From NCBI RefSeq assembly GCF_041886205.1, contig NZ_CP169029.1: DNA of 64,000 nt; one strand, written 5' to 3'. Shown here in pieces: positions 3,610 to 15,945 of this stretch (positions are counted from its first letter, which is position 1; every line of letters begins with the position of its first letter). A program made the position numbers and the translations under genes. The stretch comes from Escherichia coli. GTDB taxonomy: Bacteria > Pseudomonadota > Gammaproteobacteria > Enterobacterales > Enterobacteriaceae. The notes under the pieces are model-generated. The model had not been told where the DNA came from and did no database searches. It saw only the letters and a program-made list of their open reading frames with translations.

Positions 3610-4875
3610 TTAAGCTTCAGCCGCCAGCATCTCTTTCTTACGTTGGCTAATACGCTTAACCAGCATTACGGAAACCACCGCACCACTGAATGCGAAGCAG
3701 GCCATAATGCCAAACACGATTTTGTAGCCAATAATCCCCGGATTTAAATCCAGAATGTAGCCATACAGACTGAAGCAGAACATCGCCGGAGCGTAACCAA
3801 TAAAGCTACCCAACGCCATCGCCGCACCTGTTTTATTTTCAGCAATTTTTGCTTCGCCGATAGGTGCAAAAAATACGGCTCGCTGTGTAAAGACTATCGC
3901 GCCAAAGCCCAGCGTACATGCCATCCCTAAATAGACCGGCATACTTTCGTGCGGCAGCATAATCAACAGTACGAGCGCAGCGGTACTAATGATAAAGGTG
4001 TAGCATAGATATTTACTTGGCGATTTCAGGATCTTATCTGAAATCATGCCACCAATCGGTCCACCAATCATTTTCAGACAGTATTGGTTAATGATGCCGT
4101 AAGCCCCCACCAGCGCAACGGGCAATAGATAGATGTTTTTCAGGAATGGAATGAAGAATGTCAGGCCACAGTAAACCGCGTAAACGAAGAAGACGTTAAA
4201 AGCGATAAGCCAGATAGTTTTGTCTTTCAGCACCGAGGTCATACTGGTGTTTTTCGATGCTCCGTCTTCTTTTTTCACCTCAACGGACGGTGCCTCTTCT
4301 TTGTCATTCAGAACAAAGAAAATGATAATGCCTACGGCAATCACAATAAGGGAATAGAACCAGATGCCTGCTTTAAAACCCAATAAGCCACTGCCAAACC
4401 AGGTAAATACTGCCAACGCAGAAAATGCCACCACGGTATCGACAATGCCACGCCCTGTTTCGAAGAAGCCAAACAACCGACCTTGTTGTTCGCTATTGCC
4501 CAATCGACTTACCGACTTGAGCAAGACCGGCCAGTTCATCATGTCGCAAGTAACGCCAAATAGCGCCCAGACAAAGAGGATGCCCCAATACCCCGGCATT
4601 GTCGTCAAATAAACACCCAGTAATCCTGTCGCAATGAGTGAGAATGACATGGTGTATCTGCGCGGTAGTTTATCGGCAAAATAAATAGACAGAAAAAAAC
4701 CCACTGTCGTGACAAATGAGTTTACCGACATAGCATTACCAATTTGACCATTGGTCAAATGGAAATATTCCTGCATCGGGATATAAAACGCATCTTTCAG
4801 CGACGGTAATTTATAAATTGTACCGCCACACAATGTTAATAGACTAAATAACGCCCATTTCTTTTTCGTGAGCAT
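3610..4875 (-). CDS. yihN: MFS transporter, uncharacterised substrate
   Basis: 421-aa hydrophobic multi-span ORF; conserved position after yihM. Confidence 0.85.
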   Translation of the reverse strand: MLTKKKWALFSLLTLCGGTIYKLPSLKDAFYIPMQEYFHLTNGQIGNAMSVNSFVTTVGFFLSIYFADKLPRRYTMSFSLIATGLLGVYLTTMPGYWGILFVWALFGVTCDMMNWPVLLKSVSRLGNSEQQGRLFGFFETGRGIVDTVVAFSALAVFTWFGSGLLGFKAGIWFYSLIVIAVGIIIFFVLNDKEEAPSVEVKKEDGASKNTSMTSVLKDKTIWLIAFNVFFVYAVYCGLTFFIPFLKNIYLLPVALVGAYGIINQYCLKMIGGPIGGMISDKILKSPSKYLCYTFIISTAALVLLIMLPHESMPVYLGMACTLGFGAIVFTQRAVFFAPIGEAKIAENKTGAAMALGSFIGYAPAMFCFSLYGYILDLNPGIIGYKIVFGIMACFAFSGAVVSVMLVKRISQRKKEMLAAEA

Positions 4876-9087: not shown

Positions 9088-10497
9088 ATGTCCGCTGAAC
9101 ACGTACTGACGATGCTGAACGAGCACGAAGTGAAGTTTGTTGATTTGCGCTTCACCGATACCAAAGGTAAAGAACAGCACGTCACTATCCCTGCTCATCA
9201 GGTGAATGCTGAATTCTTCGAAGAAGGCAAAATGTTTGACGGCTCCTCGATTGGCGGCTGGAAAGGCATTAACGAATCCGACATGGTGCTGATGCCAGAC
9301 GCATCCACCGCAGTGATTGACCCGTTCTTCGCCGACTCCACCCTGATTATCCGTTGCGACATCCTTGAACCTGGCACCCTGCAAGGCTATGACCGTGACC
9401 CGCGCTCTATTGCGAAGCGCGCCGAAGATTACCTGCGTTCCACTGGCATTGCCGACACCGTACTGTTCGGGCCAGAACCTGAATTCTTCCTGTTCGATGA
9501 CATCCGTTTCGGATCATCTATCTCCGGTTCCCACGTTGCTATCGACGATATCGAAGGCGCATGGAACTCCTCCACCCAATATGAAGGTGGTAACAAAGGT
9601 CACCGTCCGGCAGTGAAAGGCGGTTACTTCCCGGTTCCACCGGTAGACTCGGCTCAGGATATTCGTTCTGAAATGTGTCTGGTGATGGAACAGATGGGTC
9701 TGGTGGTTGAAGCCCATCACCACGAAGTAGCGACTGCTGGTCAGAACGAAGTGGCTACCCGCTTCAATACCATGACCAAAAAAGCTGACGAAATTCAGAT
9801 CTACAAATATGTTGTGCACAACGTAGCGCACCGCTTCGGTAAAACTGCGACCTTTATGCCAAAACCGATGTTCGGTGATAACGGCTCCGGTATGCACTGC
9901 CACATGTCGCTGTCTAAAAACGGCGTTAACCTGTTCGCGGGCGACAAATACGCAGGTCTGTCTGAGCAGGCGCTGTACTACATTGGCGGCGTAATCAAAC
10001 ACGCTAAAGCGATTAACGCCCTGGCAAACCCGACCACCAACTCTTATAAGCGTCTGGTCCCGGGCTACGAAGCACCGGTAATGCTGGCTTACTCTGCACG
10101 CAACCGTTCTGCGTCTATCCGTATTCCGGTGGTTTCTTCTCCGAAAGCACGTCGTATCGAAGTACGTTTCCCGGATCCGGCGGCTAACCCGTACCTGTGC
10201 TTTGCTGCCCTGCTGATGGCCGGTCTTGATGGTATCAAGAACAAGATCCATCCGGGCGAAGCCATGGACAAAAACCTGTATGACCTGCCGCCAGAAGAAG
10301 CGAAAGAGATCCCACAAGTTGCAGGCTCTCTGGAAGAAGCACTGAACGAGCTGGATCTGGACCGCGAGTTCCTGAAAGCCGGTGGCGTGTTCACGGATGA
10401 AGCGATCGATGCGTACATCGCTCTGCGTCGCGAAGAAGATGACCGCGTGCGTATGACTCCGCATCCGGTAGAGTTTGAGCTGTACTACAGCGTCTAA
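9088..10497 (+). CDS. glnA: glutamine synthetase
   Basis: 469-aa ORF, recognised GlnA sequence including the adenylylation region. Confidence 0.97.
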
Positions 10498-10584
10498 TAG
10501 TTGAAGTTGTACTACCCGGCGCAACAACGCCGGGATTTAGTTGCCGTGGAAACTTTCAGCCCATCTCTGCATGGGCTTTTTTCT
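10498..10584 (+). ncRNA. glnZ: glnA 3'UTR, candidate 3'UTR-derived sRNA (GlnZ-like) ending at the glnA terminator
   Basis: 3'UTR with hairpin CCCGGCG..CGCCGGG (10515..10534) and terminator GCCCATCTCTGCATGGGCTTTTTT (10558..10584); sRNA assignment is from literature, not visible in sequence. Confidence 0.35.
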
Positions 10585-10670
10585 CCGTCAATTCTCTGAT
10601 GCTTCGCGCTTTTTATCCGTAAAAAGCTATAATGCACTAAAATGGTGCAACCTGTTCAGGAGACTGCTTT

Positions 10671-11731: not shown

Positions 11732-13141
11732 ATGCAACGAGGGATAGTCTGGGTAGTCGATGACGATAGTTCCATCCGTTGGGTGCTTGAACGTGCGCTC
11801 GCTGGAGCGGGGTTAACCTGTACGACATTTGAGAACGGCGCGGAAGTACTTGAGGCGCTGGCGAGCAAAACGCCGGATGTGCTGCTTTCAGATATCCGTA
11901 TGCCGGGAATGGACGGGCTGGCACTGCTCAAGCAGATTAAACAGCGCCATCCGATGCTTCCGGTCATCATTATGACCGCACATTCCGATCTGGATGCTGC
12001 CGTCAGCGCCTATCAACAAGGGGCGTTTGATTATCTGCCCAAACCGTTTGATATCGACGAAGCCGTGGCGCTGGTTGAGCGCGCCATCAGTCATTACCAG
12101 GAACAGCAGCAGCCGCGTAATGTTCAGCTTAACGGCCCAACGACCGATATCATCGGCGAAGCGCCAGCCATGCAGGACGTGTTCCGTATTATCGGTCGGC
12201 TTTCGCGTTCTTCTATTAGCGTGCTGATTAACGGCGAATCCGGCACCGGTAAAGAACTGGTCGCTCATGCCCTGCATCGCCACAGTCCGCGAGCCAAAGC
12301 GCCGTTTATCGCGCTGAATATGGCAGCTATCCCAAAAGATTTGATCGAATCAGAACTGTTTGGTCACGAGAAAGGCGCGTTTACCGGCGCGAATACCATT
12401 CGTCAGGGGCGTTTTGAACAGGCTGATGGCGGTACATTATTTCTCGATGAAATTGGCGATATGCCGCTGGATGTGCAGACGCGTTTGCTGCGCGTGCTGG
12501 CAGACGGTCAGTTTTACCGCGTTGGCGGCTATGCGCCGGTGAAAGTGGATGTGCGGATTATCGCTGCCACTCACCAGAATCTCGAACAGCGGGTGCAGGA
12601 AGGTAAGTTCCGTGAGGATCTGTTCCACCGCCTGAACGTTATCCGCGTTCATCTGCCGCCGCTGCGCGAACGTCGGGAAGATATTCCCCGTCTGGCGCGC
12701 CATTTTTTACAGGTTGCCGCGCGCGAACTGGGCGTAGAAGCGAAGTTGCTGCATCCGGAAACCGAAGCCGCGCTGACGCGTCTGGCGTGGCCAGGCAACG
12801 TGCGCCAGCTGGAAAACACCTGCCGCTGGCTAACGGTGATGGCCGCTGGGCAGGAAGTGTTGATTCAGGATTTGCCCGGCGAACTGTTTGAATCAACGGT
12901 TGCGGAGAGTACTTCGCAAATGCAACCGGACAGTTGGGCGACGCTTCTTGCGCAGTGGGCAGACAGAGCGCTGCGTTCCGGTCATCAAAATCTGCTTTCC
13001 GAAGCGCAGCCAGAGCTGGAGCGGACGTTACTGACGACCGCGTTGCGACACACCCAAGGGCATAAACAGGAAGCGGCGCGGCTACTCGGCTGGGGCCGCA
13101 ACACCCTGACGCGTAAGTTAAAAGAGCTGGGGATGGAGTGA
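11732..13141 (+). CDS. glnG: sigma-54-dependent response regulator NtrC
   Basis: 469-aa product from ATG 11732 with SD AAGGTG; receiver domain, AAA+ domain (GESGTGKE) and C-terminal HTH. Confidence 0.95.
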
Positions 13142-13252
13142 TTCACGGCTTGTGTGTAAAGATTGATTATTGAGCGCAAATTGCTGGTATTTTGCGCTTT
13201 ACTGTTCCGATAAGTTCAGTATGATCTTGCCCGGAAAACGGGGAGAGTCATT

Positions 13253-13363
13253 ATGCTGGAATCAATAATTAATCTGGTATCGAGTGGCGCAGTTGACAGC
13301 CACACACCGCAAACTGCCGTTGCTGCCGTGCTGTGTGCCGCGATGATTGGGCTGTTTAGTTGA
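13253..13363 (+). CDS. yshB: small protein YshB (36 aa)
   Basis: ORF MLESIINLVSSGAVDSHTPQTAVAAVLCAAMIGLFS preceded by GGGGAGAG Shine-Dalgarno; absent from the ORF track because of its size. Confidence 0.6.
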   Translation: MLESIINLVSSGAVDSHTPQTAVAAVLCAAMIGLFS

Positions 13364-13378
13364 AGCTCGTTGTTTATG

Positions 13379-13480
<102 letters not shown>

Positions 13481-13562
13481 AAAAGCAATAATTTCAACAG
13501 GTTTTGTTGACCAGCGCATCAGGCAACCTTGTTCTCAGCACATTGATAGCGCCATTCACTAT

Positions 13563-14936
13563 TTAAATCACCCGAGAGAACTGCTGCATCCGCGCTTTCT
13601 GGCGCAGATAGGTATCAAAGCACATGCAAATGTTGCGGATCAGCAAGCGACCTTTCGCCGTCACCTGAATCCCCTTCTCATCGACATCCACCAGCCCATC
13701 TTTTGCTAACGGGGCGAGCAGCTTGAGATCTTCCGCAAAGTAATCAGCGAAGTGCAAATCCCACTGTTTCTCAATAGGGGCGTAATCCAGACGGAAGTTG
13801 CAGATGAGCGACTTAATCACATCGCGGCGAATACAGTCATCACGCGTTAGCGCAATACCACGCCACAGCGCATTGCCTTGTTCATCCACTTGCTGATAGT
13901 ACTGCTTCAACTCTTTCTGGTTCTGCGCGTAGCAGTCGCCAATCATGCTGATGGCGGAAACGCCCATCCCCAGCAGATCGGTATCGCCCTGAGTGGTGTA
14001 GCCCTGGAAGTTACGATGCAGCACGCCTTCACGCTGGGCCACCGCCAGCTCGTCATCCGGACGGGCAAAGTGATCCATACCGATAAACTGATAGCCCGAT
14101 TGCGTCAGGAAGGCGATGGTTTCCTGCAGGATATCGAGTTTTTGCTGCGGACTCGGCAGGTCAGCATCTTTGATTTTGCGCTGAGCAGCAAAAATGGTCG
14201 GCAGATGCGCGTAGTTAAAGACACTCAGACGATCGGGGTTCAGCTCCGCCACACGTTTCAGGGTAAAGGCGAAACTCTCCGGCGTCTGTTTCGGCAGGCC
14301 GTAAATCAGGTCGATGTTGGTGGAGGTAAAACCAATCTCACGCGCATGGTTAAGCAGTGCAAAGATGAACTCTTCATCCTGCTCGCGGTTAACCAGACGT
14401 TGCACTTCTTTGTTGAAGTCCTGCACGCCCATGCTCAGGCGATTAAAGCCTTCGGCGCGTAAATGATCGAGTACATCCAGTTCGATTTCCCGCGGATCGA
14501 CTTCGATCGAAATCTCCGCATCGGCATTGAACTGGAAGTTTTCGCGCAGCAGCTTCATCAGGCGGCTGATTTGCGCTTTATTCAGATACGTCGGCGTTCC
14601 GCCGCCCCAGTGCAATTGGCTGACGTGACGCCCGGCGAACAGCGGTGCACGATGGACGATTTCTTGCTCCAGCGCGTCCAGATACTGATCGGCCTTGTGC
14701 TGCTGGCGAGTAACAATCTTATTGCAACCGCAGAAGTAACAAAGCTTATGGCAGAACGGGATATGTACGTAGAGAGATAATGGACGCTCAGGATAGCGCG
14801 CCACGGCTTGTAAAAACGCCTGTTCGCCGAAGTCTTCTGAAAACTCCAGCGCGGTCGGGTACGAGGTGTATCGTGGCCCGGAATAGTTATATTTCTGGAT
14901 CAGGGCCAGATCCCAGTCGATTTGCTGTACAGACAT
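13563..14936 (-). CDS. hemN: oxygen-independent coproporphyrinogen III oxidase (radical SAM)
   Basis: 457-aa product from MSVQQIDWD; CxxxCxxC motif (HIPFCHKLCYFCGC). Confidence 0.95.
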   Translation of the reverse strand: MSVQQIDWDLALIQKYNYSGPRYTSYPTALEFSEDFGEQAFLQAVARYPERPLSLYVHIPFCHKLCYFCGCNKIVTRQQHKADQYLDALEQEIVHRAPLFAGRHVSQLHWGGGTPTYLNKAQISRLMKLLRENFQFNADAEISIEVDPREIELDVLDHLRAEGFNRLSMGVQDFNKEVQRLVNREQDEEFIFALLNHAREIGFTSTNIDLIYGLPKQTPESFAFTLKRVAELNPDRLSVFNYAHLPTIFAAQRKIKDADLPSPQQKLDILQETIAFLTQSGYQFIGMDHFARPDDELAVAQREGVLHRNFQGYTTQGDTDLLGMGVSAISMIGDCYAQNQKELKQYYQQVDEQGNALWRGIALTRDDCIRRDVIKSLICNFRLDYAPIEKQWDLHFADYFAEDLKLLAPLAKDGLVDVDEKGIQVTAKGRLLIRNICMCFDTYLRQKARMQQFSRVI

Positions 14937-15634: not shown

Positions 15635-15702
15635 AATGGTTCGTCTTTTAGCCGTTTTATTCAGTATAGATTTGCGGCGGAATCTAACAGAAAGCAAGCA
15701 AA

Positions 15703-15945
15703 GAAAAAAGGCGACAGATTACTCTGTCGCCTTTTTTCCTGACTCATAACCCTTAACGGGTCTTACAATCCTTGCAGGCCGCCAACACACCCTGTTTTTC
15801 CTTTAGCCGGAACAATCCGTGTTGATTCCATTTCCGTTTAATTACGTCTCCGGACGTTTGTCTTCCTGACAATCCTCTGTCTTCGCCTCCTGGCGCTCCT
15901 GACCCTCATCCTGAGTCATTGTTCCTGTTAGCGTCCTCGCTCTAT
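15703..15945 (-). ncRNA. csrC: CsrC small RNA (CsrA-sequestering)
   Basis: reverse complement matches CsrC from ATAGAGCGAGGACGC.. to the terminator GGCGACAGAGTAATCTGTCGCCTTTTTT; multiple GGA motifs; between yihI and engB. Confidence 0.85.

What the first reader, a model, noticed from the sequence alone, without database searches (positions are those of the whole stretch)
13253..13363. 36-codon small ORF (yshB-like) downstream of glnG, missed by the ORF track
ATG at 13253 is preceded by a GGGGAGAG Shine-Dalgarno and encodes MLESIINLVSSGAVDSHTPQTAVAAVLCAAMIGLFS, which has a hydrophobic C-terminal half like a single-pass small membrane protein. I recognise it as the small protein YshB described between glnG and hemN. 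It is followed by a REP/BIME cluster.
Basis: partly seen in the sequence, partly recalled or inferred. Interest (0 to 1): 0.3.

Follow-up and report, generated by a model that had tools for sequence, protein, structure and literature searches.

The report
Known small-protein gene yshB

Summary
The ORF at 13253-13363 (+) is there exactly as described: ATG start, GGGGAGAG Shine-Dalgarno five bases upstream, and a 36-aa product, MLESIINLVSSGAVDSHTPQTAVAAVLCAAMIGLFS. RefSeq annotates the identical ORF as yshB (K-12 b4686), between glnG and the convergent hemN. It scores 72.1 bits on the NCBIfam equivalog model small_YshB, against a cut-off of 34. The promoter-plus-ORF stretch is single-copy in 5425 of 5426 complete E. 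coli genomes.

The frame is under protein-level selection. E. coli and Salmonella differ at 14 synonymous and 3 conservative codons, with no second-position change. Of the six frames, only this one stays open in all six sequences compared (E. coli, Salmonella, Klebsiella, three Erwiniaceae contigs), always about 100-112 nt after glnG. A promoter-like TTTACT-16-TATGAT site is conserved with it.

Published work reports direct mass-spectrometric detection, cleavage of tagged YshB by the intramembrane protease RseP, its own promoter that does not respond to nitrogen limitation, and a role in Salmonella virulence. The downstream REP/BIME cluster is also confirmed.

The biochemical function in E. 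coli is still unknown. I infer a small inner-membrane modulator of a larger protein.

Verdict: correct and already known, so low interest.

The parts
13253..13363 (+). yshB coding sequence: 36 codons plus TGA stop
   Evidence: Searches give the sequence and translation. RefSeq CDS yshB sits at the same coordinates (locus 4354-4464 corresponds to window 13253-13363). NCBIfam NF033841 scores 72.1 bits.
13240..13247 (+). Shine-Dalgarno sequence GGGGAGAG
   Evidence: Read from the sequence. The G-rich block before the ATG is conserved in all six species aligned.
13198..13225 (+). Sigma-70-type promoter-like site: TTTACT, 16-nt spacer, TATGAT. This is the likely yshB promoter.
   Evidence: Found by the consensus scan. 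CTTTAC and GTATnAT are invariant across E. coli, Salmonella, Klebsiella and Erwiniaceae. The literature states that yshB has its own promoter (PMC9731577). The transcription start was not mapped here.
13172..13199 (+). 9-bp stem-loop GAGCGCAAA...TTTGCGCTC after glnG. It may be the glnG 3' hairpin, and it overlaps the yshB -35 region.
   Evidence: RNA fold, both MFE and centroid. It is conserved in Salmonella but not in Erwiniaceae. The terminator scan did not call it. Its role is inferred, not shown.
13376..13480 (.). REP/BIME cluster between the convergent genes yshB and hemN. It has a half-REP at 13378-13390, a REP at 13397-13433 in inverse orientation and a REP at 13447-13480. A further fragment lies at 13515-13525.
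   Evidence: Inverted repeats I4 and I5. The REP core motif occurs 20 times in the window against 3.25 expected. Rfam naRNA4 matches above its gathering score. The 901-nt query that contains the cluster hits a median of 26 places per E. coli genome, whereas the promoter-plus-ORF stretch hits one.
11732..13141 (+). glnG (ntrC), the upstream neighbour, given for context
   Evidence: RefSeq annotation mapped to the window.
13563..14936 (-). hemN, the convergent downstream neighbour, given for context
   Evidence: RefSeq annotation mapped to the window.

Best explanation
This is yshB (K-12 b4686), a real and independently expressed gene for a 36-residue protein.

Shown here:
- The frame, its length, and its start and stop positions are kept, about 100-112 nt downstream of glnG, in Escherichia, Salmonella, Klebsiella and Erwiniaceae.
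- Substitutions fall on synonymous sites.
- A promoter-like site and a Shine-Dalgarno sequence are conserved with the frame.

Reported by others:
- The protein is detected intact by top-down mass spectrometry.
- Tagged YshB is cleaved by the intramembrane protease RseP, in vivo at chromosomal RseP levels and in vitro.
- The Salmonella orthologue promotes intracellular replication and virulence.

Inferred:
- The protein folds as an N-terminal amphipathic helix (residues 2-15), a break at the invariant H-T-P-Q-T motif, and a C-terminal hydrophobic helix (19-35).
- The C-terminal helix inserts post-translationally into the inner membrane as a tail anchor, with the N-terminus in the cytoplasm.
- There it most likely binds and modulates a larger membrane protein, as MgrB, AcrZ, MgtS and CydX do, and its level is trimmed by RseP.
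- The downstream REP/BIME cluster marks the 3' end of the short mRNA, probably stabilises it, and separates it from convergent hemN.

The partner protein and the biochemical activity are unknown.
For: - Annotation: RefSeq and K-12 both annotate the ORF as yshB.
- Family: NCBIfam equivalog small_YshB scores 72.1 bits against a cut-off of 34. Orthologues carry precomputed Pfam PF28018:YshB.
- Exact sequence: it is in the collection as YSHB_ECOLI, seen on at least 1000 contigs.
- Distribution in E. coli: the promoter-plus-ORF stretch is single-copy in 5425 of 5426 complete genomes at 95% identity or more.
- Selection: E. coli and Salmonella differ at 14 synonymous and 3 conservative codons, with differences by codon position of 5/0/15. 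Across six species the variable columns by codon position are 23/10/31, and only this frame of six is open in all.
- Synteny: the order glnA-glnL-glnG-yshB is the same in all loci. The organisms are named.
- Promoter and Shine-Dalgarno conservation.
- Predicted structure: helix 2-15, break, helix 19-35, mean pLDDT 70.
- Hydrophobicity.
- Literature: PMC10470546 for RseP cleavage, where YshB is a class I substrate. PMC12529367 for top-down MS. PMC9731577 for its own promoter and lack of nitrogen induction. PMC7549839 for the estimate of more than 11,000 copies, citing Li et al. 2014.
Against: - The hydrophobic run is only 16 residues. No family member examined has a single Lys or Arg, so there is no positive-inside signal to fix a topology.
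- C-terminally His-tagged YshB could not be detected after induction in one study (PMC7549839).
- The MS paper lists YshB apart from the 'small membrane proteins'.
- All the RseP data use N-terminally tagged constructs, and the authors warn that tags can change topology.
- No partner protein is known, and none was found here.
- The structure model has only moderate confidence and rests on eight sequences.
- I could not read the primary discovery paper (Hemm 2008) or the Salmonella paper (Bomjan 2019).
Confidence: 0.9

Rival explanations
1. The ORF is a chance reading frame in the glnG 3' region, or the transcript acts as a non-coding or dual-function RNA. Pseudomonas, for example, has the sRNA NrsZ downstream of ntrC. 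On this reading the peptide is irrelevant.
For: Short ORFs are abundant by chance: 105 of at least 20 aa lie in 6.5 kb. The region upstream of the ORF is unusually well conserved between E. coli and Salmonella. PMC9731577 notes that NrsZ occupies the corresponding locus in Pseudomonas.
Against: The substitutions are overwhelmingly synonymous, with no second-position change between E. coli and Salmonella. The frame, its length and its stop position are kept as far out as Erwiniaceae at 53% amino-acid identity, while the other five frames each acquire stops in at least one species. Intact protein is detected by MS. No Rfam family matches the ORF. The candidate RNA structures showed no covariation or excess stability.
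Confidence: 0.02
2. YshB is a real protein but is not an integral membrane protein. It would be a soluble or peripherally bound amphipathic peptide that acts in the cytoplasm or at the membrane surface.
For: The hydrophobic segment is only 16 residues, there are no basic residues, and the N-terminal segment is strongly amphipathic (muH 1.67). The MS paper names YshB separately from the small membrane proteins.
Against: RseP, which cleaves within transmembrane segments, cleaves YshB in four assay formats, including purified enzyme. TMHMM or TOPCONS predicted a single span for all 37 proteins in that screen, YshB among them. NCBI names the family 'small membrane protein'.
Confidence: 0.07
3. YshB is a type I toxin-like small hydrophobic peptide, held in check by an antisense RNA that starts in the downstream REP.
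For: It is a small hydrophobic peptide and was found as an RseP substrate alongside the Hok toxins. A promoter-like site on the minus strand at 13463->13434 would read antisense into yshB.
Against: A very high copy number is reported, which does not fit a toxin. It is a single-copy core gene at one fixed syntenic site in 5425 of 5426 genomes, not a mobile or duplicated module. The minus-strand site lies inside a REP repeat and is only a consensus match, 2 found against 0.6 expected. None of the papers read reports toxicity.
Confidence: 0.01

Closest known systems
YshB family small membrane protein (NCBIfam NF033841, Pfam PF28018; E. coli K-12 b4686; Salmonella YshB)
   Same: The protein sequence is identical to K-12 YshB. 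The neighbours (glnG upstream, hemN convergent), the length and the HTPQTA plus hydrophobic-tail motif are the same.
   Different: Nothing of substance. Relative to K-12 there are two synonymous changes in the ORF (Ala30 GCG/GCA, Ser36 AGT/AGC) and a 29-nt deletion further downstream, next to the hemN stop.
Small inner-membrane regulators of larger proteins (MgrB-PhoQ, AcrZ-AcrB, MgtS-MgtA, CydX-cytochrome bd)
   Same: It is under 50 aa, has one hydrophobic helix, is encoded by its own small gene, is conserved in enterobacteria, and is cleaved by RseP in the same screen as MgrB and CydX.
   Different: No partner is known for YshB. It has no basic residues at all, and its hydrophobic segment lies at the extreme C-terminus and is only 16 residues. 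The comparison describes how it may work. It is not a claim of homology.
REP/BIME extragenic palindromes of E. coli
   Same: Imperfect palindromes of about 35 nt with the GCCGGATGCGGCG core, in alternating orientation, between convergent genes and dispersed through the genome.
   Different: The BIME subtype was not assigned. The Rfam match to naRNA4 reflects the REP origin of that family and does not show that this locus produces naRNA4.

Membership tests
YshB family (NF033841 / PF28018) | Scores above the curated cut-off of the equivalog HMM over its full length | tested here: met
   72.1 bits against a cut-off of 34, E=2.4e-20, residues 1-36 on profile positions 1-40 of 40. The local Pfam copy lacks the newer PF28018 and gave no hit. 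PF28018 is precomputed on the orthologues.
YshB family (NF033841 / PF28018) | Genomic position immediately downstream of glnG (ntrC), on the same strand | tested here: met
   RefSeq 6EVA and K-12. The same order holds in Salmonella, Klebsiella and Erwiniaceae loci, with a glnG-yshB spacer of 100-112 nt. hemN is the next gene except in Erwinia tracheiphila, where an SBP_bac_5 gene lies between them.
YshB family (NF033841 / PF28018) | Conserved sequence signature: a protein of about 36 aa with an HTPQTA core and a C-terminal hydrophobic tail | tested here: met
   M1, E3, H17, P19, Q20, T21, A22, A25, C28, A29 and F35 are invariant in 8 sequences down to 53% identity.
YshB family (NF033841 / PF28018) | The reading frame is under purifying selection as a protein | tested here: met
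   14 synonymous against 3 non-synonymous codon differences between E. coli and Salmonella. It is the only frame open in all six species.
YshB family (NF033841 / PF28018) | The protein is actually synthesised | not testable with these tools
   Literature only: top-down MS detection (PMC12529367) and a ribosome-profiling copy-number estimate cited in PMC7549839. Ribo-seq initiation tables were not held.
YshB family (NF033841 / PF28018) | Integral inner-membrane localisation | not testable with these tools
   Sequence gives a 16-residue apolar run, T21-S36, and a predicted helix at 19-35. RseP cleavage of tagged constructs supports membrane insertion (PMC10470546). Nothing I read shows it for the native protein.
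REP/BIME | Imperfect palindrome of about 35 nt carrying the REP core, repeated many times in the genome, in extragenic positions | tested here: met
   Palindromes at 13397-13433 and 13447-13480. Core motif found 20 times in the window against 3.25 expected, with 0 of 100 shuffles reaching 20. The query containing them hits a median of 26 places per genome. They lie between the stop codons of yshB and hemN.
Type I toxin-antitoxin (Hok-like) | A toxic small hydrophobic peptide with a cis-encoded antisense RNA, often in several copies | not tested
   There is only a consensus promoter match on the antisense strand, inside a REP. The gene is single-copy and core, and high abundance is reported. 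Considered and set aside.

The most novel reading that the evidence does not exclude
Three features are odd for an ordinary small transmembrane protein. No family member examined has any Lys or Arg. The hydrophobic segment is only 16 residues and sits at the extreme C-terminus. His17 and Cys28 are invariant from Escherichia to Erwinia. YshB could therefore be a tail-anchored peptide that ligates a cofactor or metal, or forms a disulphide or thioether link to a partner. That partner might be tied to heme or anaerobic respiration, given its usual neighbour hemN. Alternatively, its fixed spacing of about 110 nt after glnG could reflect coupling to read-through from glnALG. Nothing here tests either idea. 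Published work says the gene is not nitrogen-regulated, and in Erwinia tracheiphila it stays with glnG while hemN is displaced.
Probability: 0.05. Interest if true: 0.5.

Novelty: already known. Interest (0 to 1): 0.07.

Why it matters
For the scan, this is a positive control. A reader without tools correctly picked a genuine 36-codon gene out of a background of over a hundred chance ORFs nearby, and named it correctly. Biologically it adds nothing new. yshB has been in the E. coli K-12 annotation (b4686) since the comparative-genomics search for small membrane proteins (Hemm et al. 2008, as cited), and it has curated NCBIfam and Pfam models. The open question is what YshB does in E. coli and which protein it acts on. 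The sequence observations made here could guide mutagenesis but do not answer that question: invariant His17, Pro19-Gln20-Thr21 and Cys28, no basic residues, and a short C-terminal anchor.

Tried and rejected
I used the HMMER scan of representatives instead. It gave 15 hits at E<=1e-3, several of them frameshifted or extended versions of the same gene.
2. The local Pfam-A copy gave no hit. The family PF28018 is newer than that copy.
3. A 5'-UTR hairpin, CCCGG-AAAA-CGGG at 13230-13244, overlaps the Shine-Dalgarno sequence. RNAalifold over six species gave 3 pairs, no compensatory change and -0.68 kcal/mol. It is not supported as a conserved structure.
4. The inverted repeat 13160-13173 / 13262-13275 could let glnG read-through RNA mask the start of yshB. 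The duplex energy is no better than shuffles (fraction of shuffles at or below the observed value is 0.13 in E. coli and 0.27 in Salmonella), and the pairing is not conserved. I treat it as chance.
5. The stretch from glnG to yshB does not fold unusually well (z = -0.93), and the terminator scan found nothing. The 'glnG terminator' label for the 13172-13199 hairpin is therefore tentative.
6. Ribo-seq initiation-site tables (Weaver 2019, Li 2014) and the primary papers (Hemm 2008 and 2010, Fontaine 2011, Bomjan 2019) are not held.
7. I did not run a structure-library search. A 36-residue two-helix model at pLDDT 70 would give meaningless matches.
8. Cluster look-ups and exact-protein look-ups already gave named organisms and synteny at far lower cost.

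Full report
**Observation**

The window has an ATG at 13253 and a TGA at 13361-13363. The 36 codons between them translate to MLESIINLVSSGAVDSHTPQTAVAAVLCAAMIGLFS, and the ORF listing reports the ORF at 13253..13363 (+) with no earlier in-frame start. GGGGAGAG lies at 13240-13247, five bases before the ATG.

The ORF alone means little. The surrounding 6.5 kb holds 105 ORFs of at least 20 aa. The case for a gene has to come from comparison with other genomes.

**Identity**

A megablast of 12900-13800 against 5,426 complete E. coli genomes finds the region in essentially all of them. It is annotated glnG | yshB | hemN. In the 100% identical record (strain 6EVA), the CDS yshB, 'YshB family small membrane protein' WP_000893994.1, maps exactly to window 13253-13363. 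It sits between glnG (window 11732-13141, +) and hemN (13563-14936, -).

K-12 MG1655 carries the gene as b4686. It differs from the window by two synonymous changes in the ORF. The protein scores 72.1 bits on the NCBIfam equivalog model NF033841 small_YshB, whose cut-off is 34. The exact sequence is the UniRef entry YSHB_ECOLI and is seen on at least 1000 contigs.

The 172-nt stretch holding the promoter and the ORF is single-copy in 5425 of 5426 genomes, at 95% identity or more.

An exhaustive HMMER scan of 1.84 billion representative proteins returned only 15 hits at E<=1e-3. All were YshB-like sequences or frameshifted or extended versions of them, so the family is narrow.

Cluster look-ups name the organisms: Escherichia (including E. 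marmotae), Shigella, Salmonella, Klebsiella, Enterobacter, Erwinia tracheiphila and other Erwiniaceae.

I fetched orthologue loci from Salmonella, Klebsiella and Erwiniaceae. In every one the gene lies 100-112 nt after glnG, in the order glnA-glnL-glnG-yshB. hemN is usually convergent next to it. In Erwinia tracheiphila a solute-binding-protein gene separates them.

| Comparison | Result |
|---|---|
| E. coli vs Salmonella, codons that differ | 14 synonymous, 3 conservative (V/L, M/L, I/V) |
| E. coli vs Salmonella, differences at codon positions 1/2/3 | 5 / 0 / 15 |
| Six species, variable columns at codon positions 1/2/3 | 23 / 10 / 31 |
| Six species, frames open in all | only the annotated frame of six |
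| Eight proteins down to 53% identity, invariant residues | M1, E3, H17, P19, Q20, T21, A22, A25, C28, A29, F35 |

This is the signature of a protein-coding gene under purifying selection.

**Expression signals**

The consensus scan finds TTTACT-16-TATGAT at 13198-13225. CTTTAC and GTATnAT are invariant across all six species, and the G-rich Shine-Dalgarno block is conserved too. [quoted passage not shown]

A 9-bp stem-loop at 13172-13199 follows glnG and overlaps the -35 hexamer. It is conserved in Salmonella but not in Erwiniaceae, and the terminator scan did not call it. Its role as a glnG terminator is therefore tentative.

**Downstream repeats**

REP elements begin 13 nt after the stop:

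- a half-REP at 13378-13390
- imperfect palindromes at 13397-13433 and 13447-13480, in opposite orientation
- a fragment at 13515-13525

The REP core occurs 20 times in the window against 3.25 expected. Rfam's REP-derived family naRNA4 matches 13400-13477 above its gathering score. Its role as an mRNA 3'-end stabiliser or boundary between convergent yshB and hemN is inferred from what is generally known about REPs.

**The protein**

AlphaFold2 on the eight-sequence alignment gives helix 2-15, a break at S16-T18, and helix 19-35. Mean pLDDT is 70. The N-terminal helix is amphipathic (muH 1.67). The C-terminal segment T21-S36 is the only long apolar run, at 16 residues. None of the five divergent homologues examined has a Lys or Arg.

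**Published experiments**

- N-terminally tagged YshB is a class I substrate of the intramembrane protease RseP. It was cleaved in all four assays, including at chromosomal RseP levels and with purified enzyme (PMC10470546). The authors caution that tags may alter topology.
- YshB is detected intact by top-down proteomics. It has no tryptic sites (PMC12529367).
- A copy number above 11,000 per cell is quoted from ribosome-profiling synthesis rates (PMC7549839 citing Li et al. 2014).
- C-terminally His-tagged YshB was not detectable in that same study.
- The Salmonella orthologue is reported to promote intracellular replication and to be required for virulence. I know this only from the title and from citing statements about Bomjan et al. 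2019, because the paper itself is not held.

**Mechanism**

It is shown here that this is a conserved, selected and separately signalled coding gene. Others report that the protein is made, is abundant, is cleaved by RseP when tagged, and matters for Salmonella inside host cells.

I infer the following. The C-terminal helix acts as a tail anchor in the inner membrane, with the N-terminal amphipathic helix on the cytoplasmic side. The protein modulates an unidentified larger membrane protein, as other enterobacterial small proteins do. RseP limits its level.

I considered three rivals. A non-coding or chance ORF is close to excluded by the codon pattern. A soluble or peripheral peptide remains possible, because the anchor is short and carries no charge. 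A type I toxin is unlikely for a single-copy, abundant, core gene.

**Dead ends**

- The 5'-UTR hairpin has no covariation support.
- The inverted repeat linking the glnG 3' end to codons 4-8 of yshB is no better than shuffles and is not conserved.
- Ribo-seq initiation tables and several primary papers could not be obtained.

**Verdict**

Both the observation and the interpretation are correct. The feature is already known, annotated and backed by curated family models, so interest is low. The least ordinary points are the complete absence of basic residues, the very short C-terminal anchor, and the invariant His17 and Cys28. They are hints for mutagenesis, not findings.

Noticed in passing
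window 15692-15945 (-): The CsrC sRNA lies between yihI and yihA (Rfam RF00084, 278.7 bits against a gathering score of 61). The RefSeq record of the identical strain carries a pseudo-CDS, 'hypothetical protein, frameshifted; internal stop', at about window 15753-15919 (-), on top of CsrC. This is probably an annotation artefact on a non-coding RNA gene.
   Followed up: partly
window 13546/13547: The window lacks 29 nt that K-12 has here (GGCGCTTTCGTTTTCTACTTTGTAAACGA). That segment is one arm plus the loop of a hairpin just downstream of the hemN stop codon. The listed next-best E. coli records span 930 nt rather than 901, consistent with the longer form, and only 23 records match the window's region at 99% identity or more. 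The effect on hemN 3'-end formation is unknown.
   Followed up: partly
window 13463->13434 (-): A promoter-like site, TTTACG-18-TATGAT, lies on the minus strand inside the REP cluster and would read antisense through yshB. It is a consensus match only, inside a repeat, and the best Rfam naRNA4 match is also on the minus strand.
   Followed up: no
window 13160-13173 and 13262-13275: A 14-nt inverted repeat, 93% complementary, joins the sequence just after the glnG stop to codons 4-8 of yshB. Its duplex energy is no better than shuffles and it is not conserved beyond E. coli and Salmonella, so it is probably chance in AT-rich sequence.
   Followed up: yes
window 10498-10670 (+): The glnA 3'UTR / glnA-glnL spacer corresponds to the sRNA GlnZ, annotated in K-12 as b4836. 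Rfam gave only a sub-threshold match to Ysr49 at 10478-10582 (34.1 bits against 95), so GlnZ appears to have no matching Rfam model.
   Followed up: no
YshB protein family (window 13253-13363; L002, L004, L005, L007, L008 at 3001-3111/3114): None of the five divergent homologues examined contains Lys or Arg. The apolar run is 16 residues at the extreme C-terminus (12 in Erwinia tracheiphila). His17 and Cys28 are invariant. This is unusual for a predicted single-pass membrane protein, which normally carries flanking positive charges.
   Followed up: partly
L007 3115-5646 (Erwinia tracheiphila): A 542-aa SBP_bac_5 solute-binding-protein gene lies between yshB and hemN, while yshB keeps its position about 100 nt after glnG. 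The conserved linkage is therefore to glnG, not to hemN.
   Followed up: no
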